The position numbers and the translations under genes were made by a program. Positions 8,787-16,968 of a stretch of 19,881 bases of DNA are shown piece by piece (the first letter of the stretch is position 1; each line of letters begins with the position of its first letter). Below the pieces are notes generated by a model. It was not told where the DNA came from, searched no databases, and saw nothing but the letters and a program-made list of their open reading frames with translations. The stretch comes from Escherichia coli (GTDB taxonomy: Bacteria > Pseudomonadota > Gammaproteobacteria > Enterobacterales > Enterobacteriaceae), in assembly GCF_003334785.1 (NCBI RefSeq), contig NZ_QOWV01000032.1; one strand, given 5' to 3'.

Positions 8787-9254
8787 ATGACAGCGGCAGA
8801 AAATCACACTGTTCCGGAAATGAATAAAACGGTTGAGCAAATGCTGGCACAAGGACAATGGCAGGATGCGCTTGATTTCTGGATTAATAATACCGATTCG
8901 TTAACATTAATTAAATGGCTGGCACAATTCATTTCTCAGTCCTCTTCTGAAGATGATTCGGTACTTTTACAGTCTATTGTAAAATGGAAGGAAGGCGATG
9001 AGGAACAACGCTGGGAAATATTTAAAAACTCGGAGTCTGCCGGATTTTCCTCTCAGACAGGTGCCCTTGGGTTATCATTATTTGTATCACAGGGAAGTCT
9101 AAGTCCGCCCCCGTATGAACCAGTCCATGCACCGTCATGTTCAGAAAAAAAAATTATATATGGTGTCTTAATGACTCAGTCGTGTAAAGCTCATGATACG
9201 CCGGATGAAGGTGTGTTTTTTCTTTTTCAGCATTGGTGTAATAGTCAACCTTAG
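8787..9254 (+). CDS. hypothetical protein (155 aa) between vgrG and PAAR; candidate spike-associated accessory/adaptor or cargo
   Basis: Good RBS (AAGGA) upstream and tight spacing to vgrG (10 bp) and PAAR (8 bp). Trp-rich N-terminal half (QGQWQDALDFWINNTDSLTLIKWLAQFI) and Cys-containing C-terminus. No family recognised by eye. Contains an A9 tract at 9145-9153. Confidence 0.6.
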   Translation: MTAAENHTVPEMNKTVEQMLAQGQWQDALDFWINNTDSLTLIKWLAQFISQSSSEDDSVLLQSIVKWKEGDEEQRWEIFKNSESAGFSSQTGALGLSLFVSQGSLSPPPYEPVHAPSCSEKKIIYGVLMTQSCKAHDTPDEGVFFLFQHWCNSQP

Positions 9255-9262
9255 GAGGGGAT

Positions 9263-9562
9263 ATGCCTCAACCCGCTGCAAGAGTGACTGATATGCATGT
9301 ATGTCCTATGGTGACGCCAGGTTTGCCACCTGTTCCTCATGTAGGAGGCCCCTTGTTACCACCAGGCTCTCCGTCTGTACTCATTGGGGGATTACCGGCA
9401 GCGACGCTGGGGAACCAGGCACTTTGTACCGGGGCAGTGGACGTCGTCATTATGGGCAGTTTTAAAGTTTTTATATGCGGCAAACCGGCCGCACGGATGG
9501 GCGATAACTGTGCTCATGGGGGGGTAATTGTCAGCGGATATCCTCAGGTATTAGTGGGATAA
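9263..9562 (+). CDS. PAAR-domain spike tip protein (stand-alone, no toxin extension)
   Basis: 99 aa with strong RBS AGGAGG. Three PAAR-type repeats visible: PAARVTD, PAATLGNQALC, PAARMGDNCAHGG. Confidence 0.9.
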   Translation: MPQPAARVTDMHVCPMVTPGLPPVPHVGGPLLPPGSPSVLIGGLPAATLGNQALCTGAVDVVIMGSFKVFICGKPAARMGDNCAHGGVIVSGYPQVLVG

Positions 9563-9565
9563 AAA

Positions 9566-10642
9566 ATGAATAAATTCGAGACGGACACATTACTGTTTCC
9601 TGTTATTGGAGAATCGCCGGCAGGTGAAGATATTGAGTATGATCCGGTGTATAGCGAAATACGGGAAGCAAGACAAAATGATCCGGACTACATGTCCCAG
9701 GGGGAATGGGCTGTCAGTGAACCCCGCAGAGCTGACTGGCGAAAGGTAAGAAAATTATGTGAGGTTACTTTACGCAATAAGAGTAAAGACCTGCAGATTA
9801 GTTGCTGGTATGTGGAGTCCCTGACGCAATTGTATTCGCTGGAAGGGCTGCACTGCGGACTGGAATATCTGGCTAAATTTATTTCTCAGTACTGGACTAT
9901 ATGTTGGCCATCGCACGAAGAAGGCCCGGAAATACGTTACAGTAAATTAGTCCGTCTTGATATGGATTTATCCGAGTATCTGAAATCCTGTCCTCTTCTT
10001 GATGATAAAGAAATCACGCTTGCTGAATGGTATAAGGCGCTGGCGTTTGAGCATGGCGCAAGTTTATCTGAAGAGGGAAAGGAAAAATTAATAGAAAGCG
10101 AAGGCGATCACTCGGTTGAAGCGTTCAAAAAATCTGTCGGTAAATATAATACACGCAAGATTAGTGAGCAATTTCTTAAGTTTTCTGATTTGCCAGACAA
10201 AATTGATGAGATTGAATCCTTTTACTTCTTTCATACGCATGAAGACATACATCATATTTTCGCAAAAACCAGACATACCATCAGTGAAATCACTGAGTTA
10301 CTGAGCCGTTTTTTACCACAAGACGTACAGGATACCAATGCAGTTTCACCGTTATCAGTTGAACCCGGGAGCAGGGAGACAGACAGGACGTTGCCGGCGG
10401 AACAGCAGGCGTTTTATGCTGCCTTAACCCCCTCAACAGATAAAGAGATGACAAGGGAGAAAGCGATAGAACAACTGGAAAAAATAGCTATTTTTTTCAG
10501 GCAATCTGAACCCACCAGTCCTGTCCCTTATCTTCTTGAGAGAGCAGTACGCTGGTCAACAATGACTATGTCAGAATGGCTTGAGGAACTACTTAAAGAT
10601 AATGACTCCGTGGAACAAATAAATCGTGTTTTAAAAGGATGA
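9566..10642 (+). CDS. tssA: TssA-family protein (ImpA N-terminal domain), short form
   Basis: 358 aa. The N-terminus GEDIEYDPVYSEIREARQ...WRKVRKLCEVTLRNKSKDLQISCWYVESL...YW matches the ImpA_N signature. Shorter than many TssA proteins. Confidence 0.8.
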   Translation: MNKFETDTLLFPVIGESPAGEDIEYDPVYSEIREARQNDPDYMSQGEWAVSEPRRADWRKVRKLCEVTLRNKSKDLQISCWYVESLTQLYSLEGLHCGLEYLAKFISQYWTICWPSHEEGPEIRYSKLVRLDMDLSEYLKSCPLLDDKEITLAEWYKALAFEHGASLSEEGKEKLIESEGDHSVEAFKKSVGKYNTRKISEQFLKFSDLPDKIDEIESFYFFHTHEDIHHIFAKTRHTISEITELLSRFLPQDVQDTNAVSPLSVEPGSRETDRTLPAEQQAFYAALTPSTDKEMTREKAIEQLEKIAIFFRQSEPTSPVPYLLERAVRWSTMTMSEWLEELLKDNDSVEQINRVLKG

Positions 10643-10649
10643 AAAATTA

Positions 10650-11201
10650 ATGACTGTTAAGGAACTGCTACTGATAACTATGGTATTACCTTTTTTTATT
10701 ACTGCCTGTTCGGATAAGTATTCTGAGCAGGATAAAATACAGGCCATTAATAATGTTGATACTCCATTTGGCGCTGGTATGCTAACTTTTCAGATATCAC
10801 CGGACACACAATTAAACTCACTTAACGAGATATCAAATAGTTGCGCATTATTATTCTTGCAGTCTTCAGGTAAAAAAACATTACAGGACTTAATGAATAA
10901 TCCTGCATTGATTAAACAGTTTTTCAGCGGGTCTGGTAAAGCAGATGGTATTCTTAAAGTTGATAAGTATATCGCAATGCCGGGACAGGAGATAACACTA
11001 CATATAGACAGAAGTGAAGGTGCTAAATATGTGGGGGTTATTGCCGGATATTATCCGTTCCCCGGAAAACAACATATGTTGCTTTTAGATATTCCCGTTG
11101 ATGTTGTTGAGGAAGGTTGGTGGAACAAATCATTACATGCATCACTTTCACCGCTTTCAAAAAATATATCGATGGGTAAAGAAAGTATCAGTATAAAATA
11201 A
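10650..11201 (+). CDS. tssJ: T6SS outer-membrane lipoprotein TssJ
   Basis: 183 aa. Hydrophobic signal peptide ending in a lipobox-like FITAC (Cys ~20). Size and position immediately before tssK fit TssJ. Confidence 0.78.
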   Translation: MTVKELLLITMVLPFFITACSDKYSEQDKIQAINNVDTPFGAGMLTFQISPDTQLNSLNEISNSCALLFLQSSGKKTLQDLMNNPALIKQFFSGSGKADGILKVDKYIAMPGQEITLHIDRSEGAKYVGVIAGYYPFPGKQHMLLLDIPVDVVEEGWWNKSLHASLSPLSKNISMGKESISIK

Positions 11202-11219
11202 TTGTACAGGTATTACTGC

Positions 11220-12599
11220 ATGCAAGAAGAAGAGCAACTTGTTTATTGGTATTCAGGGCTTTACTTACAACCTCAGCACTTTCAGTCCATTGATTTGCAT
11301 CATAGTTTCATGCTGGCCAGAACCAGGCAGTTATCACAACCTCATCATCAGGGTTATTATGAATGTCGTATAAATGATGATCTTCTGAAAGAATACACTG
11401 TTAGAATCGAAAAAATAAAAGCAGTGTTATCTTCAGGACATTATATCGAGTATCCGGGTAACTGTGTGGTGCAGGATAAGTGCCTGACAAATCTCCGGGG
11501 TACAGATCCCGGCACCGTAACGTTGTGGCTTGCTCTTAAGCGATTTAATTCCGGACATAAAAATGTATCTGGCATCAATGATAAACGCGGCTCTGCCAGA
11601 TGGGTAAGTTCCGATGATGAAGGCAACATGCGTAATGTGTATCATGACAGTCAGGATGCCGGTATCACAAGAATAAAATATGATATTCAGATCCTTACCG
11701 ATGAGGAAAAAGAGAATACCACAGACTTTGAATACTTACCTCTGACAAGAATTATTCATGACAATAATACATTGTGTATTGATGATGAATATTCATTTCC
11801 TGCAATGAGGTTATCAGCGAACAGCAAACTTAGAGATAAGATCGCAGAGATTCATGCTGATATTCAATTCTACAAAAATAAACTTGAAGAATACCGATAT
11901 ACAGAACGAACAGTGTCCGATGGACATCTTTATAATTTTTTGATCCTGTGTGCTATTAACAGAATATCACCGCTTCTGTCTTCCTTTATTAATGAAGATG
12001 CCATTCACCCATGGTTATATTATATGGCATTGTGTCAGTTTACAGGGGAAATATCGACATTTAAAAATTCTGTATTTTCAGAGGCAAGAATTGTTGATCT
12101 AACATACAATCATTATGAGCAGGTTTCCTGTTTCAGTAATCTTCAGTATTATATTAAAGTAATGCTTGATAATTTATGTAGAGATAAGATTATCGGTGTT
12201 GAATTTAAAAAGATAACAACAGATACCCTGGTCTGTAATTTTGATGAGTACAGTTCCAGAAATAATTCAGATTACTATATTAAATTAACTTCAGAGACCT
12301 TTAAAAAGAATAACTCAATTGCATTGCCCGAGATTAAGATTGCTCCATCTGAACATATAGATCTGATCATTCAGCATGCGCTTCCAGGCATTACTTTTAC
12401 AGTGATGGATGTCGTTACATCTGAGTTACAGGTAAGAGACAATATCATCTGGTTAAAGATCGATAAACATTCAGAGTTATGGAAGTCAGCTCAGGTCCAG
12501 AAAAGGGTTGCATTTTATTGGTCATGTAGCCCTGATGATTTACTGGTAGAGTTAGTATTATCGCAGGAAAAAATATGCAGTAAGCCGTCTTCCGGCTGA
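11220..12599 (+). CDS. tssK: T6SS baseplate protein TssK
   Basis: N-terminus LVYWYSGLYLQPQHFQSIDLH matches the conserved TssK start (VxWxEGMxLxPQHFQQ). ATG 11220 chosen; the ORF track extends to a TTG at 11202 directly after the tssJ stop. Confidence 0.9.
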   Translation: MQEEEQLVYWYSGLYLQPQHFQSIDLHHSFMLARTRQLSQPHHQGYYECRINDDLLKEYTVRIEKIKAVLSSGHYIEYPGNCVVQDKCLTNLRGTDPGTVTLWLALKRFNSGHKNVSGINDKRGSARWVSSDDEGNMRNVYHDSQDAGITRIKYDIQILTDEEKENTTDFEYLPLTRIIHDNNTLCIDDEYSFPAMRLSANSKLRDKIAEIHADIQFYKNKLEEYRYTERTVSDGHLYNFLILCAINRISPLLSSFINEDAIHPWLYYMALCQFTGEISTFKNSVFSEARIVDLTYNHYEQVSCFSNLQYYIKVMLDNLCRDKIIGVEFKKITTDTLVCNFDEYSSRNNSDYYIKLTSETFKKNNSIALPEIKIAPSEHIDLIIQHALPGITFTVMDVVTSELQVRDNIIWLKIDKHSELWKSAQVQKRVAFYWSCSPDDLLVELVLSQEKICSKPSSG

Positions 12600-12936
12600 G
12601 GGGGCGAACCAGACGGCGGATGGCAGAGAAGGGTCCATTCACTGCCAGTGCCTGAAACAGCTTTTTCTCCGTCAGTGGAATCCGGATCTCAGAACAAGAC
12701 CTGTCAGGCGCTACAGGGAAACCTGATGGCAGAACAGAAAATGGCAGAATGTTCGTGAACACGATGAAGGAAGCTGCATCGCGTTCATGCCTGACCATAT
12801 GTAAGCTCTGCAGTGGTTCGGACATTAAGGAGAGACCTCCGCACAGTGCACGGGTATGTTGCTCACCTGGCGAATGTCAGTATCCGTGGGCAGATTTCAG
12901 TTACAGTTTATCGTTTCCGGGGACAAAACATGTTAT
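12600..12936. other. GC-richer, apparently non-coding block interrupting the otherwise tightly packed operon between tssK and tssL
   Basis: Only intergenic gap >12 bp inside the cluster. Base composition is visibly G+C-richer than the flanks. The octamer ATGGCAGA occurs three times (12620, 12726, 12741). Only short or Cys-rich ORFs of doubtful reality. Confidence 0.5.
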
Positions 12937-13554
12937 ATGAATATTTATGTCATGGAGGTACTGGTGAATATTGTTGAATGCTATATGCCAGTATTTAAAC
13001 TCATATCATCTGTTAAAGTCTTTCCAGAAGAATATGGTGATTACGACAGTACCAGAAAGCAGATAATTGATACTGTTGAAGATGTCGTGCGCAATAGTGA
13101 AAAAATATCTTTAAGTGACAGTGAACTGGATGCGGCATTTTATTCAATAGTTGTTATGCTTGATGAGGTTATTTTGTGCTCTGAACTTCCGTACAGAAAA
13201 GAATGGCGCGATAATCTTTTACAGATTAAATATTTTGGACATTCCACTGGCGGTGTTGAGTTTTTTAACATGCTTAATAAAGTCATTGAATCCGGAAGTC
13301 AGGTTGCATGGGTTTTTCTCTTATGTCTCTTACTTGGATTCAGGGGGAAATATTCTGTAAGCAATGATGATGAAATCCTGGATTATATATCAAGACTGAA
13401 AAAACAATGCGGGTTAAATATTCGTGTTGAAGAAAAAAATAAGATCGCATTTAAACAAAAAAAGAATAAATCATCATGGTTTAATTTTTATTTGTCACTT
13501 GCAGGTATCATTATTATTTATTTCGTATTGTTGTTTGTGATATATGTGAGATGA
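12937..13554 (+). CDS. tssL: T6SS membrane protein TssL (DotU-like), short form with C-terminal TM anchor
   Basis: DotU-like cytosolic region followed by a single C-terminal hydrophobic helix (WFNFYLSLAGIIIIYFVLLFVIYV). Start uncertain: in-frame ATGs at 12856, 12937 and 12952; 12937 chosen because 12856-12936 lies in the GC-rich block. Confidence 0.78.
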   Translation: MNIYVMEVLVNIVECYMPVFKLISSVKVFPEEYGDYDSTRKQIIDTVEDVVRNSEKISLSDSELDAAFYSIVVMLDEVILCSELPYRKEWRDNLLQIKYFGHSTGGVEFFNMLNKVIESGSQVAWVFLLCLLLGFRGKYSVSNDDEILDYISRLKKQCGLNIRVEEKNKIAFKQKKNKSSWFNFYLSLAGIIIIYFVLLFVIYVR

Positions 13555-13560
13555 TCTCTT

Positions 13561-16500
13561 ATGCTTAAGAAGATATTTTCATTGTTTCTCTGGATTTTTG
13601 TGTCTGTTTTCGTTTTATCTGTTTGTTATGTCATTGGCGTGTTCAGAAACTGGACAGATACTACAACTGTATTTTACTGGATTTTTGTAATTCTGGTTAC
13701 ACTCACCCTGAAATTGATTGTGGATTGTATCCATAATTACTTTTCGTCAGGTAAATACAGAAAGCTGGTGAGGTTATTTTCCAGGAAAAAAAGAACAATA
13801 ACACTTGATTCATACTTCAGGAAAGGAATGAATATCATAAGTAAAAAAGGAAGAGGCGTGGTCCCCTGGTTTTTACTTACGGGGGATTCAGAAAAAAACG
13901 CTTCCCTGCTTAAGGATATTAATCTTCCCGTCTTTCACAGTAATGAGTTAAATGGTATTTCTCAACAATTCAGAACAATTCGTTGGTGGTTTTTCAGGGA
14001 TTCAAGTGTACTGGAGTTGTCAGGTAAGATATATGACAACCCGGGGGTGCTGAACTCTGTGATAGGTTTTTTATCAGCACGTAACTCTAAAAAACAACCA
14101 CCTCATGGCATTGTTCTGGTTATTCCTGTTGAAACGTTACTTGATCATGATTACTCCTGTATTCAGGTGTTATCTCAAAAAACAAGAAATTTTACAGAAC
14201 AACTGTCGTCACACTTACATCATAATATCCCAGTTTTTCTGGTTATAAGTGGATGCGAGCACATCAGTGGGTATTCATCGCTGGCACAAAAAATTCATCA
14301 AAAAAATAACAATGGGTATCCGGTATTTTGGGCAACCAATAAATCAGACACAAATGCATCTGAATATGACTCATCATATATATTGTCATCATTAAAATCT
14401 AATATTACGATAGAAATATGTCATGTACTTGATGATACATTGAGTGACCAGGAAAAAAACGAGATCCTGTTGTTTCCGGATAAATTGAATGATCTAAAAC
14501 ATTCACTGGATGTGTTTATTTCAACATTCAGTATCGATAACGTGTTTTTTTCTCAGACAGAAGTCTCCGGGGTCTGTTTATCTGGTGAACTCGTTTCGGG
14601 TAAGGATAAAAATTGTACTTTTTCTGATGTTTTAGTTTCTGAGATCCTACCACAAATACAGAACTCAGAAGTTATTCACGTTAATAAACGAAGAATAAAA
14701 ATGTCATTCAGATCCGTTATGGTTATGACGGCGCTGTGCTTTATTGGATATAGTGCATATTGTTCATATCATATATATGATGTCAGGCAAGGTTCTGTGG
14801 AGATCAGCCCTGCATTCCTGACTGAGCAAATATTAAAATATGAAGATAAAGTCAGATCTAATATACTTTATTTACCTTTTAAACCGGCATTGAATGATAA
14901 ATATTTATTTTTCAGAGAGTCTCTTTATAACAGTAGCAGATTCGAGACCCGTCCTGTTTCATGGCGCGTTGATGAATATAAGAAAAAATTCCTTGCGGCT
15001 TCCCCATCAGGAAAGCGTGAATTGATTCTGTCGCTTGCCTCATCGCTTATCGGTTGGGATAAGATGGTTAAGGATGAATCACTGCTTGATTTAACAACAT
15101 TTCCGGGTATTCATGAATCAATAAAAATAACCAGACCTTATGATAAAATATCATCAATAGCTTCACTGGCTTTAGAAAGAGATGAGATACAAAAAAATCA
15201 TGGAAGTGAAAATATTGATGTGTTCAGAAAACTCCTTAGCGAGTTTATTCAGAGTGATCCATCTTATTCATGGTTTGTTTCTGAATATGTTGATATTCCG
15301 GCCGTAAAAGTTACGGATTTCTGGGAAGATGAAAACGCATCTGTCAGTCTGTCTGGTATATGGACTCAGGAGGGACAGAATAAACTTCATCACTGGTATG
15401 AGAATATCAAAGAGGCATATGGACGTGATACGGTTCCGGAAGCGTTTTCATCTTTTGTGCAGTACCTGGAAGAAAGTCGTCAGGAGCATTTCAGACAGTT
15501 CATCATGGCTGTCGCAAGGGAGCGTAAAGATTCACATTCAGGGTTAATGAGTCCGCTGCAGTTGACAGATATCATACAAAATCGTTCATCTGAGCATAAA
15601 TTCTTTAAGTTTGTTGATGATGAATTACATAATATCCCGGCAAGTTCAGCGCAGGACTGGCTTTCTGATTTCAGGCTGCTTTATCGTCTGTTTTCTCTTA
15701 AAGTGGATAACGGAATGAAGCGTCAGATAGAGCAGTTTGACATCATGGTACGTATATATCTGATGTCTGTTTTTAATAACAGTCAGATGAACAGGACAAC
15801 GGCTCATGTAACAGCATGGAGAGACTGGCAGAATGTGCTACGTAATGCCGTAAATTCAGAGTTACATACAGCATCATCCGTTGAACTGATCCGTAATGCT
15901 ATGCGTTCAGACCCAAAAAACAAGCTGGTAATATTATTTGATGAATTTGAAAAGGTTCGTTCAGTGATTAACAGTAATAATACAGATCCAGTGATTGATT
16001 CTGTATGGGATATTTATGAACGGCAAAATTATAAACTTCTCGACCATGCAGTCACGTATACGGGGTGCAGGGTTGATGAACAATGGAGAAATTCTGTTTT
16101 AAGCCAGTTAAATTCAGATAAACACAATTCCAGTCATTCTGAAATGCAGGGTAAAATATATAAAAACATTATTGGTTTTTTAAATGGATCCGCTAACGGT
16201 GTTTTAGCACTTGATGCCGAAGGTGCCAGAGTATTGTCGTTCAGGGAAAGAAGTATACCGTTTACGCCTTCATTCATTAGTTTTCTCAATGACGTTGTTT
16301 CTCCGGATGATTTGCTTGACGTTCAGCTCAGAGACCGAACGCAAAACAAGGATGAGCTGATAAATGTACAGGGACAATTAGACGTACTGAATCAGACCCT
16401 GCAAAAGATTGAATCACAGCCTTACAAAATGACGGTAAGTAGTGCACCTGCGACGATTTCAGGTCATCATGGCGTTAAACCAACAGGTACAACTCTGACT

Positions 16501-16965
16501 CTTGAGTGCAAAACAGGTAACAGCAGTATAAGAAGCATGAATTTTGCCGATTCAGGTCTTTTTACCTGGTATCCAGGAAGTTGTCATTCTGTCAGCATTG
16601 ATATTTCGTTCCCTGACTTTTCCACCACCTATAAATTCACAGGTGAAACAGCCTGGATTGATTTTATCAACAAGTTTTCGGATGGAGAGGATGAGTTAAT
16701 GACAAAGGACTTTTCTCCGGAATCAAGAAGTTTTCTTGAATCAATGGGTATAAAAAGTATCCTCGTCCGTTACAAACTGAGTGATACCGGCGATCTCAGT
16801 CAGGCATATATCGAATGGGAACAGTTAAAACAGGAAAAGGATAAACTTGAAAATTTGCAGATTAGTCTGAGTAATAAACTGCTTACCACTCATAGCTGGG
16901 AGAAAAGTGGCTGGATTTCCAGATTGCCTGGCAAAATAACAATATGTCCGGCAGTACAGGAGTGA
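13561..16965 (+). CDS. tssM: T6SS membrane complex protein TssM (IcmF-like) with degenerate Walker A
   Basis: 1134 aa. Two N-terminal TM helices, cytoplasmic domain, third TM (MSFRSVMVMTALCFIGYSAYC), large C-terminal periplasmic region. Where canonical TssM has PWYL..G.PG.GK[ST], this one reads VPWFLLTGDSEKNAS. Confidence 0.95.
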   Translation: MLKKIFSLFLWIFVSVFVLSVCYVIGVFRNWTDTTTVFYWIFVILVTLTLKLIVDCIHNYFSSGKYRKLVRLFSRKKRTITLDSYFRKGMNIISKKGRGVVPWFLLTGDSEKNASLLKDINLPVFHSNELNGISQQFRTIRWWFFRDSSVLELSGKIYDNPGVLNSVIGFLSARNSKKQPPHGIVLVIPVETLLDHDYSCIQVLSQKTRNFTEQLSSHLHHNIPVFLVISGCEHISGYSSLAQKIHQKNNNGYPVFWATNKSDTNASEYDSSYILSSLKSNITIEICHVLDDTLSDQEKNEILLFPDKLNDLKHSLDVFISTFSIDNVFFSQTEVSGVCLSGELVSGKDKNCTFSDVLVSEILPQIQNSEVIHVNKRRIKMSFRSVMVMTALCFIGYSAYCSYHIYDVRQGSVEISPAFLTEQILKYEDKVRSNILYLPFKPALNDKYLFFRESLYNSSRFETRPVSWRVDEYKKKFLAASPSGKRELILSLASSLIGWDKMVKDESLLDLTTFPGIHESIKITRPYDKISSIASLALERDEIQKNHGSENIDVFRKLLSEFIQSDPSYSWFVSEYVDIPAVKVTDFWEDENASVSLSGIWTQEGQNKLHHWYENIKEAYGRDTVPEAFSSFVQYLEESRQEHFRQFIMAVARERKDSHSGLMSPLQLTDIIQNRSSEHKFFKFVDDELHNIPASSAQDWLSDFRLLYRLFSLKVDNGMKRQIEQFDIMVRIYLMSVFNNSQMNRTTAHVTAWRDWQNVLRNAVNSELHTASSVELIRNAMRSDPKNKLVILFDEFEKVRSVINSNNTDPVIDSVWDIYERQNYKLLDHAVTYTGCRVDEQWRNSVLSQLNSDKHNSSHSEMQGKIYKNIIGFLNGSANGVLALDAEGARVLSFRERSIPFTPSFISFLNDVVSPDDLLDVQLRDRTQNKDELINVQGQLDVLNQTLQKIESQPYKMTVSSAPATISGHHGVKPTGTTLTLECKTGNSSIRSMNFADSGLFTWYPGSCHSVSIDISFPDFSTTYKFTGETAWIDFINKFSDGEDELMTKDFSPESRSFLESMGIKSILVRYKLSDTGDLSQAYIEWEQLKQEKDKLENLQISLSNKLLTTHSWEKSGWISRLPGKITICPAVQE

Positions 16966-16968
16966 GAA

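What the first reader, a model, noticed from the sequence alone, without database searches (positions are those of the whole stretch)
13840..13900. TssM cytoplasmic NTPase domain has lost the Walker A P-loop
At the position where TssM/IcmF proteins normally carry GxxGxGK[ST], this protein reads VPWFLLTGDSEKNAS (no Gly-Lys-Ser/Thr). The surrounding fold-defining blocks (GIVLVIPVETLL, IPVFLVISGCEHISGY) are retained. This predicts a TssM that cannot bind or hydrolyse NTP in the canonical way, a known but minority state, and says something about how this system assembles.
Basis: partly seen in the sequence, partly recalled or inferred. Interest (0 to 1): 0.45.

Follow-up and report, generated by a model that had tools for sequence, protein, structure and literature searches.

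The report
TssM with a dead GTPase-like domain
The membrane-anchor protein TssM of this plasmid-borne E. coli type VI secretion system keeps a GTPase-shaped cytoplasmic domain but has lost all three nucleotide-binding motifs; this is a real but already recognised state, shared with the working aai system of enteroaggregative E. coli.

Summary
ORF 13561-16965 (+) is the TssM of a complete T6SS cluster. It is 100% identical to an E. coli eatA plasmid and syntenic with the EAEC 042 aai/Sci-2 (T6SS-3, i4b) locus, at 84% nt identity. Canonical TssMs read PWYLvIG-esGsGK[ST] here; this protein reads PWFLLTG108-DSEKNAS115, one residue shorter, with Lys->Asn113 and Thr->Ala114. The 1134-aa protein contains no GK[ST] at all.

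The loss is lineage-wide. The wider Enterobacterales clade has a shortened GxxCGK[ST] loop, and the E. coli/Yersinia branch lost GK[ST] entirely. EAEC AaiO has the same dead motifs and is reported to be required for AaiC/Hcp secretion, so the state is compatible with function.

Best reading: a pseudo-GTPase scaffold, with ClpV as the only canonical NTPase encoded in the cluster. The literature already says that these motifs occur in some but not all TssMs. Interest is low to moderate.

The parts
1087..19497 (+). Complete aai/Sci-2-type (T6SS-3, i4b) type VI secretion cluster: tssB, tssC, hcp/aaiC-like, tssE, tssF, tssG, vgrG, DUF6931, PAAR, tssA, tssJ, tssK, tssL, tssM, clpV
   Evidence: ORFs. 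RefSeq annotation of the 100% identical plasmid NZ_CP069544.1. Same gene order as EAEC 042, where the third gene is annotated aaiC/Hcp2. NCBIfam hits for TssK, TssA, TssL and ClpV.
13561..16965 (+). tssM (icmF/aaiO-type), 1134 aa
   Evidence: Pfam PF14331 at res 175-347, E 9e-16. TIGR03348 scores only 45 bits against a cutoff of 388. 1045 homologs at E<=1e-3. 80% aa identity to EAEC 042 AaiO.
13561..13737 (+). N-terminal transmembrane hairpin (TM1-TM2, res 1-59)
   Evidence: Two hydrophobic segments, res 1-31 and 34-59 (KD19 >1.6). They are followed by 13 K/R against 1 D/E in res 58-100, which places the loop in the cytoplasm by the positive-inside rule.
13738..14715 (+). Cytoplasmic domain (res 60-385): a Ras/Rag-like G-domain fold followed by a helical subdomain
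13882..13905 (+). Degenerate G1/Walker A: G108-D-S-E-K-N113-A114-S115, one residue shorter than GxxxxGK[ST]; Lys->Asn113, Ser/Thr->Ala114
   Evidence: Alignments. No GK[ST] anywhere in the protein. The loop varies among E. coli alleles: GDSEKNNS, GDSIQNTS, GISEKGNS, STSGENTS. No helix alpha1 is predicted after beta1, whereas the canonical control has one.
14008..14028 (+). Degenerate G3/Walker B: VLE152-LSG155-K, where canonical TssMs have hhhDTAGR (Asp->Glu)
   Evidence: Alignment. The A. tumefaciens Walker B is hhhhD188xxG191 (PMC3346141).
14107..14142 (+). Conserved beta-strand block GIVLVIPVETLL (res 183-194), aligned with canonical NGlivtvsadkL
   Evidence: The model shows a strand followed by a helix over res 183-194 (domain res 124-135).
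14227..14274 (+). Degenerate G4 block IPVFLVIS230-G-C-E233-HISGY, where canonical TssMs have PVYvlvTKcDlixGF ([NT]KxD): Thr->Ser, Lys->Gly, Asp->Glu
   Evidence: ISGCEH is invariant in all five E. coli alleles compared.
14707..14769 (+). Third transmembrane segment (res 383-403, FRSVMVMTALCFIGYSAYCSY)
   Evidence: Read from the sequence. It is moderately hydrophobic and falls below the KD 1.6 threshold. Its position matches TM3 of the TssM topology described in PMC6517824.
14770..16962 (+). Periplasmic domain, including the conserved C-terminal region (res ~950-1075) shared with canonical TssMs
   Evidence: The best phmmer stretch to many canonical TssMs is query res 950-1080. dN/dS is 0.16-0.22.
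16969..19497 (+). clpV/tssH (aaiP-type) with both AAA+ Walker A/B pairs intact; the only canonical NTPase encoded in the cluster
   Evidence: TIGR03345 at 940 bits, above the cutoff. Walker A GEPGVGKS215 and GPSGTGKT584; Walker B ILFIDE283 and VILLDE652.
12937..13554 (+). tssL (DotU family), the membrane partner of TssM
   Evidence: TIGR03349 at 91 bits. Annotated start (locus 15377 minus an offset of 2440).

Best explanation
The gene encodes the TssM (IcmF/AaiO-type) inner-membrane core subunit of a plasmid-borne aai/Sci-2-like type VI secretion system. Its cytoplasmic loop keeps the shape of a small GTPase, but the three elements that bind and hydrolyse nucleotide have decayed. Walker A/G1 is shortened by one residue and lacks Gly-Lys-Ser/Thr. 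Walker B/G3 DxxG is ExxG. G4 [NT]KxD is SGCE. The domain is therefore most likely a pseudo-GTPase: a passive, conserved scaffold. It would hold TssL and dock the baseplate (TssK, TssG, TssA) under the membrane complex. Energy would come from sheath contraction and from ClpV-driven recycling. What is shown here: the motif loss, the fold retention, the purifying selection and the lineage-wide distribution. What comes from the literature: the orthologous AaiO is required for AaiC secretion in EAEC. What is inferred: the absence of nucleotide binding and the scaffold role.
Against: No biochemical data exist for this protein or for AaiO. Some pseudo-GTPases still bind nucleotide without a canonical P-loop. 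[quoted passage not shown] The missing helix alpha1 rests on a prediction of only moderate local confidence. The scaffold contacts (TssK, TssG, TssA, TssL) are extrapolated from work on EAEC Sci-1 that I recall (Logger 2016, cited in PMC6517824). They were not tested here.
Confidence: 0.8

Rival explanations
1. The domain still binds or hydrolyses nucleotide through a non-canonical site, for example using K112 or S115 of the remnant loop together with E152-xx-G155.
For: ELSGK and ISGCEH are invariant among five E. coli alleles, and S115 is conserved across the whole family. Most of the wider clade keeps a GxxCGK[ST] loop, which suggests some residual constraint on this site.
Against: K112 is not conserved: it is Q in TCM3e1, E in PEC41 and N in the Yersinia/E. 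coli representative P0011. The loop carries two acidic residues (D109, E111) where the phosphates would sit. The G4 Lys and Asp that hold the base are both gone. The loop is one residue too short, and no alpha1 helix is predicted.
Confidence: 0.1
2. The motif loss reflects a decaying, non-functional T6SS carried passively on an IS-rich plasmid.
For: The cluster is flanked by IS elements and transposase fragments. The type is rare, found in 96 of 5426 complete E. coli genomes. Several core proteins fall below NCBIfam cutoffs.
Against: All 13 core genes are intact ORFs. tssM dN/dS is about 0.2 in every domain. The same motif state is found in EAEC 042 AaiO, whose system secretes AaiC and is reported to mediate bacterial competition. 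The loss is old and shared with Yersinia homologs at 35-46% identity.
Confidence: 0.07
3. The by-eye register is wrong and a canonical P-loop lies elsewhere in the cytoplasmic domain.
For: None found.
Against: There is no GK[ST] anywhere in the 1134 residues. The multiple and pairwise alignments agree on the register.
Confidence: 0.01

Closest known systems
AaiO (IcmF/TssM) of the EAEC 042 aai / Sci-2 T6SS (E. coli T6SS-3, subclass i4b), pheU island
   Same: 80% aa and 84% nt identity, the same length (1134 aa) and identical gene order from tssB to clpV. It has the same degenerate motifs: GDSEKNNS, ELSG, SGCE. It is reported as required for AaiC/Hcp secretion.
   Different: The window copy is plasmid-borne, on an eatA plasmid of ETEC type flanked by IS elements, rather than in the chromosomal pheU island. 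The cytoplasmic domain differs at about 26% of residues. AggR control of this copy is unknown.
Agrobacterium tumefaciens TssM (ImpL_M), the biochemically characterised TssM ATPase
   Same: The same family, the same topology (TM hairpin, cytoplasmic G-like domain, TM3, periplasmic domain) and the same partnership with TssL.
   Different: The A. tumefaciens protein has Walker A G139xxxxGKT146, Walker B D188xxG191 and a distal (N/T)KxD. It binds and hydrolyses ATP, and both motifs are needed for Hcp secretion (PMC3346141). The window protein has none of the three motifs.
EAEC Sci-1 TssM (EC042_4539 region), the structurally characterised TssJLM membrane-complex subunit
   Same: It is also a functional T6SS TssM with no GK[ST] in its cytoplasmic domain; it reads KIRILLITGTASEVELL at the equivalent place. 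This shows that a P-loop-less TssM supports an active system.
   Different: It belongs to a different T6SS subtype. Its cytoplasmic domain is too divergent for phmmer to align with the canonical set (no hit at E<=10). The query gave no hit at E<=0.01 when searched against all PDB chain sequences.
Edwardsiella tarda EvpO and Francisella PdpB
   Same: These are examples where the TssM nucleotide site is dispensable or absent. EvpO Walker A substitutions did not change secretion (PMC9972734). From my own recollection, not checked here, PdpB is described as lacking a Walker A box.
   Different: EvpO still has the motif. PdpB belongs to the very divergent T6SS-ii, with 18% identity to V. cholerae TssM (PMC5924787).
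Pseudo-GTPases (G-domain proteins that have lost the G1-G5 motifs and act as scaffolds)
   Same: A retained G-domain fold with degenerate G1, G3 and G4 motifs, under purifying selection.
   Different: This is a general concept, not a homologous family. Here the domain is an internal loop of a polytopic membrane protein.

Membership tests
TssM/IcmF (T6SS inner-membrane core subunit) | Full-length sequence homology to TssM proteins | tested here: met
   phmmer finds 1045 representatives at E<=1e-3 and 58 at E<=1e-30, with end-to-end alignments to ~1130-aa proteins. Foldseek hits are annotated TssM/IcmF.
TssM/IcmF (T6SS inner-membrane core subunit) | Pfam IcmF-related_N and the NCBIfam TIGR03348 equivalog | tested here: inconclusive
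   PF14331 is matched at E 9e-16. TIGR03348 reaches only 45 bits against the curated cutoff of 388, and PF06761 and PF06744 are not detected. This is a divergent subfamily.
TssM/IcmF (T6SS inner-membrane core subunit) | Topology: TM hairpin, cytoplasmic domain, third TM, large periplasmic domain | tested here: met
   Hydropathy and charge bias, plus the TM3 candidate at res 383-403. TM3 is only moderately hydrophobic.
TssM/IcmF (T6SS inner-membrane core subunit) | Encoded next to tssL within a cluster holding the other core T6SS genes | tested here: met
Active P-loop NTPase / TRAFAC-type GTPase | Walker A / G1 GxxxxGK[ST] | tested here: not met
   The site reads G108DSEKNAS115, and the protein has no GK[ST].
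Active P-loop NTPase / TRAFAC-type GTPase | Walker B / G3 hhhhDxxG | tested here: not met
   The site reads SVLE152LSG155: Asp is replaced by Glu and the Gly is kept.
Active P-loop NTPase / TRAFAC-type GTPase | G4 [NT]KxD base-specificity motif | tested here: not met
   The site reads S230-G-C-E233.
Active P-loop NTPase / TRAFAC-type GTPase | G-domain alpha/beta fold | tested here: met
Active P-loop NTPase / TRAFAC-type GTPase | Nucleotide binding and hydrolysis | not testable with these tools
   This needs a biochemical assay.
aai / Sci-2 type T6SS (E. coli T6SS-3, i4b) | Synteny and high identity with the EAEC 042 aaiA-P locus | tested here: met
   84.2% nt identity for tssM. The gene order is identical, including aaiC, DUF6931 and PAAR. 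The i4b/T6SS-3 label is taken from the literature (PMC10761095, PMC10725161).
aai / Sci-2 type T6SS (E. coli T6SS-3, i4b) | AggR-dependent expression | not tested
   The promoter region 717-1087 was not analysed, and no aggR gene lies in the window.

The most novel reading that the evidence does not exclude
The aai-type T6SS lineage holds a natural decay series within one conserved gene architecture. It runs from the canonical G1/G3/G4 motifs, to a 7-residue 'GxxCGK[ST]' loop with the G3 Gly and G4 Lys already lost, to complete loss of GK[ST] at least three separate times. If the short Cys-containing loop still binds a ligand, or acts as a switch, while the E. coli/Yersinia branch works without it, the series would give a direct genetic handle on a disputed question: whether TssM NTPase activity has any role in T6SS assembly.
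Probability: 0.2. Interest if true: 0.5.

Novelty: new member of a known kind. Interest (0 to 1): 0.25.

Why it matters
The role of TssM nucleotide binding is unresolved: it is required in A. tumefaciens and dispensable in E. tarda. This locus and its EAEC orthologue show a complete T6SS whose TssM has lost all three nucleotide motifs, yet the domain stays under selection. That supports the view that the cytoplasmic domain is mainly a docking scaffold. It also explains why curated TssM models miss this protein, and why aai-type TssMs are annotated only as 'N-terminal domain-containing'. Beyond that it is a modest, confirmatory observation.

Tried and rejected
- A sequence search of the full protein against PDB chains found nothing, so no solved homologue could be aligned directly.
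- The word-index homolog search with the N-terminal 408 aa returned only close, mostly partial E. coli proteins and gave no distant relatives. The exhaustive representative search replaced it.
- My first regex screen, G.{4}GK[ST], wrongly suggested that the whole near clade lacks a P-loop. The alignment showed that most of the clade has a one-residue-shorter GxxxGK[ST].
- PADLOC gave no hits for TssM or the unassigned ORFs.
- The 'Walker A' hits in two E. coli T6SS genomics papers were author names in reference lists.
- The search for 'aaiO' by word start returned ophthalmology papers on AAION. The whole-word search worked.
- Journet & Cascales 2016 and Ma 2009 are not held in the library. Statements about them come from papers that cite them or from my recollection.
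- phmmer could not align the Sci-1 TssM cytoplasmic domain to canonical TssMs. Its motif register is therefore given only by MAFFT placement and by the absence of GK[ST].

Full report
**What is in the window.** The 19.9-kb window is one co-directional type VI secretion (T6SS) cluster. The gene order is tssB, tssC, an Hcp-like gene, tssE, tssF, tssG, vgrG, DUF6931, PAAR, tssA, tssJ, tssK, tssL (DotU), tssM and clpV. The tssM ORF (13561-16965, +, 1134 aa) is 100% identical to a gene on plasmid unnamed2 of E. coli FDAARGOS_1248. That plasmid also carries eatA, and there the cluster is flanked by IS elements.

Related copies occur in 96 of 5426 complete E. coli genomes, 45 on plasmids and 51 on chromosomes. 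One chromosomal copy, at 84.2% nt identity, is in EAEC 042. There the syntenic locus contains the gene annotated aaiC/Hcp2. The window therefore holds a plasmid-borne version of the aai/Sci-2 system, which the literature calls E. coli T6SS-3 or subclass i4b. PMC10761095 found i4b systems only on plasmids larger than 100 kb in ETEC; see also PMC10725161. The window's G+C content is 39.8%.

**The observation.** The protein contains no [AG]xxxxGK[ST] and no GK[ST] tripeptide at all.

To test the register I collected relatives with an exhaustive HMMER search, which gave 1045 hits at E<=1e-3. I then aligned the N-terminal ~450 residues of 127 full-length proteins. The flanks anchor the site firmly: PWFLLTG aligns with PWYLvIG upstream, and SLL aligns with [ST]xL downstream.

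- 83 proteins carry a canonical GxxxxGK[ST] at this position.
- The query has G108-D-S-E-K-N113-A114-S115. This is one residue shorter, with Asn at the Lys position and Ala at the Ser/Thr position.
- In 83 of 85 independent pairwise HMMER alignments to canonical TssMs that cover the motif, the first Gly pairs with G108. Gap placement varies, but no register produces G-K-[ST].

A. tumefaciens TssM is the biochemically characterised ATPase. It has Walker A G139xxxxGKT, Walker B hhhhD188xxG191 and a distal (N/T)KxD (PMC3346141). These correspond to a GTPase-type G1, G3 and G4.

| Motif | Canonical TssMs in the alignment | Query |
|---|---|---|
| G1 | GxxxxGK[ST] | G108DSEKNAS115 |
| G3 | hhhDTAGRY | VLE152LSG155K (Asp->Glu) |
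| G4 | PVYvlvTKcDlixGF | IPVFLVIS230GCE233HISGY (Thr->Ser, Lys->Gly, Asp->Glu) |

Across the family the three motifs decay together:

- Of 83 canonical-G1 proteins, 64 also have DxxG and [NT]KxD.
- None of the 23 proteins with a shortened loop has DxxG, and only one keeps [NT]KxD.
- Of the 21 proteins without any P-loop, only one keeps both DxxG and [NT]KxD.

That correlation is what one expects if the three motifs form a single functional unit that has been given up.

**Lineage history.** The near relatives (P0014-P0041, 22-28% identity) include proteins from Pantoea and Dryocola and from several other Enterobacterales genera. The one whose context I fetched has the window's gene order (L007). 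Most of these proteins carry a 7-residue loop, G-x-x-[CS]-G-K-[ST], with the G3 glycine and G4 lysine already gone.

A rough NJ tree places three separate complete losses of GK[ST] inside that clade:

- the E. coli/Yersinia aai branch, which contains the query (with P0011, P0012 and P0013);
- P0019/P0035;
- P0018/P0021 (P0018 is from Pantoea).

Other Walker A losses are scattered among otherwise canonical lineages. EAEC Sci-1 TssM, the subunit used for the TssJLM cryo-EM work, also has no GK[ST] in its cytoplasmic domain. Loss of the TssM nucleotide site is therefore recurrent. [quoted passage not shown]

As a control I modelled a canonical TssM domain (P0072, GESGSGKT) with the same pipeline.

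| | Query (res 60-385) | Canonical control (P0072) |
|---|---|---|
| Mean pLDDT | 85.9 | 93.2 |
| Segment after beta1 | coil, pLDDT 73-80 | P-loop then helix alpha1, pLDDT ~97 |

The missing helix suggests that the P-loop/alpha1 element has collapsed structurally, not merely changed side chains. This is a prediction of moderate local confidence.

Nei-Gojobori dN/dS between the query and four E. coli alleles (68-86% aa identity) is 0.21-0.28 for the cytoplasmic domain and 0.16-0.22 for the periplasmic domain. The pseudo-GTPase domain is therefore under purifying selection and only slightly relaxed.

Among those alleles the old P-loop reads GDSEKNAS, GDSEKNNS, GDSIQNTS, GISEKGNS and STSGENTS. 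Four of its eight positions show three or more residue types, against 70 of 326 positions for the domain as a whole. ELSGK and ISGCEH are invariant. The sample is small, so I treat this only as consistent with a loop that has no specific job.

**Does such a TssM work?** EAEC 042 AaiO has the same dead motifs. VFDB-style naming equates icmF with aaiO and clpV with aaiP (PMC11531133). Two reviews report, citing Dudley et al. 2006, that aaiB, aaiG, aaiO and aaiP mutants still make AaiC but do not secrete it. They also report that aaiA-P suffices for secretion in E. coli HB101 and that T6SS-3 contributes to bacterial competition (PMC6730261; PMC10725161). I could not read the primary paper.

In the window cluster, ClpV keeps both Walker A/B pairs and is the only canonical NTPase encoded. 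No fha, ppkA or tagF-like gene is annotated in the cluster.

**Most likely mechanism.** The cytoplasmic domain is a pseudo-GTPase scaffold. Its conserved surface would hold TssL and dock the baseplate. Sheath contraction and ClpV recycling would supply the energy. The scaffold contacts are inferred from work on EAEC Sci-1 (Logger 2016, cited in PMC6517824) and were not tested here. I put this reading at about 0.8.

The rivals, with my estimates:

- Non-canonical nucleotide binding (about 0.1). In its favour are the invariance of ELSGK and ISGCEH and the retention of GxxCGK[ST] in sister lineages. Against it are the non-conserved K112, the acidic loop, and the loss of the G4 Lys and Asp.
- A decaying system (about 0.07). 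Against it are the intact ORFs, the low dN/dS and the working EAEC orthologue.
- A mis-register (about 0.01). This is refuted by the sequence.

**Novelty and score.** Three things may not have been written down before:

- all three G motifs are gone in the aai-type TssM;
- the wider clade carries a shortened Cys-containing loop;
- GK[ST] was lost repeatedly within that clade.

This is a modest addition: a new member of a known kind, with interest about 0.25. The most novel reading still open is that the decay series gives a natural experiment on whether TssM NTPase activity matters at all.

Noticed in passing
Related proteins P0014-P0041; example locus L007 10001-13432: A clade of Enterobacterales TssMs carries a 7-residue 'G-x-x-[CS]-G-K-[ST]' loop, one residue shorter than Walker A and usually with a conserved Cys. 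L007, the one context fetched, has the window's gene order. None has DxxG at G3, and all but one lack the G4 Lys. Whether this loop still binds anything is unknown.
   Followed up: partly
L003 25249-28638 (EAEC 042 Sci-1 tssM): The TssM of the structurally characterised EAEC Sci-1 system also has no GK[ST] in its first 480 residues. It reads KIRILLITGTASEVELL where the P-loop would be. Its cytoplasmic domain is too divergent for phmmer to align with canonical TssMs.
   Followed up: partly
Related proteins P0051, P0064, P0069, P0083, P0097, P0105, P0109: Scattered, apparently independent losses of the Walker A Lys or Ser/Thr occur in lineages that otherwise group with canonical TssMs. Nucleotide-site decay in TssM is therefore recurrent.
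   Followed up: no
window 3054-3575, 3584-4006, 8787-9254, 10650-11201: The Hcp/AaiC-like protein, the TssJ lipoprotein and the DUF6931 protein get no NCBIfam hit. TssE scores 24.5 bits against a cutoff of 53. The whole aai-type apparatus is sequence-divergent, not only TssM.
   Followed up: no
window 12600-12936: A 337-nt gap lies between the end of tssK and the annotated start of tssL. The aai letter scheme (aaiO = icmF, aaiP = clpV) implies that an extra ORF ('aaiM') was once called around here. The ORF listing also offers a longer tssL start at 12856 and an antisense ORF at 12445-12825 that looks spurious.
   Followed up: no
window 1-1087 and whole window: The window's G+C content is 39.8%. 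On the identical plasmid the cluster is bounded by IS21, IS3 and IS100 elements and lies near a frameshifted eatA autotransporter gene. This is consistent with a horizontally moved island. The 370-nt region upstream of tssB (717-1087) was not examined for AggR-type control.
   Followed up: no
window 349-717: A 122-aa GTG-start ORF upstream of tssB is annotated as hypothetical in RefSeq. It has no PADLOC hit, and nothing suggests a function.
   Followed up: partly
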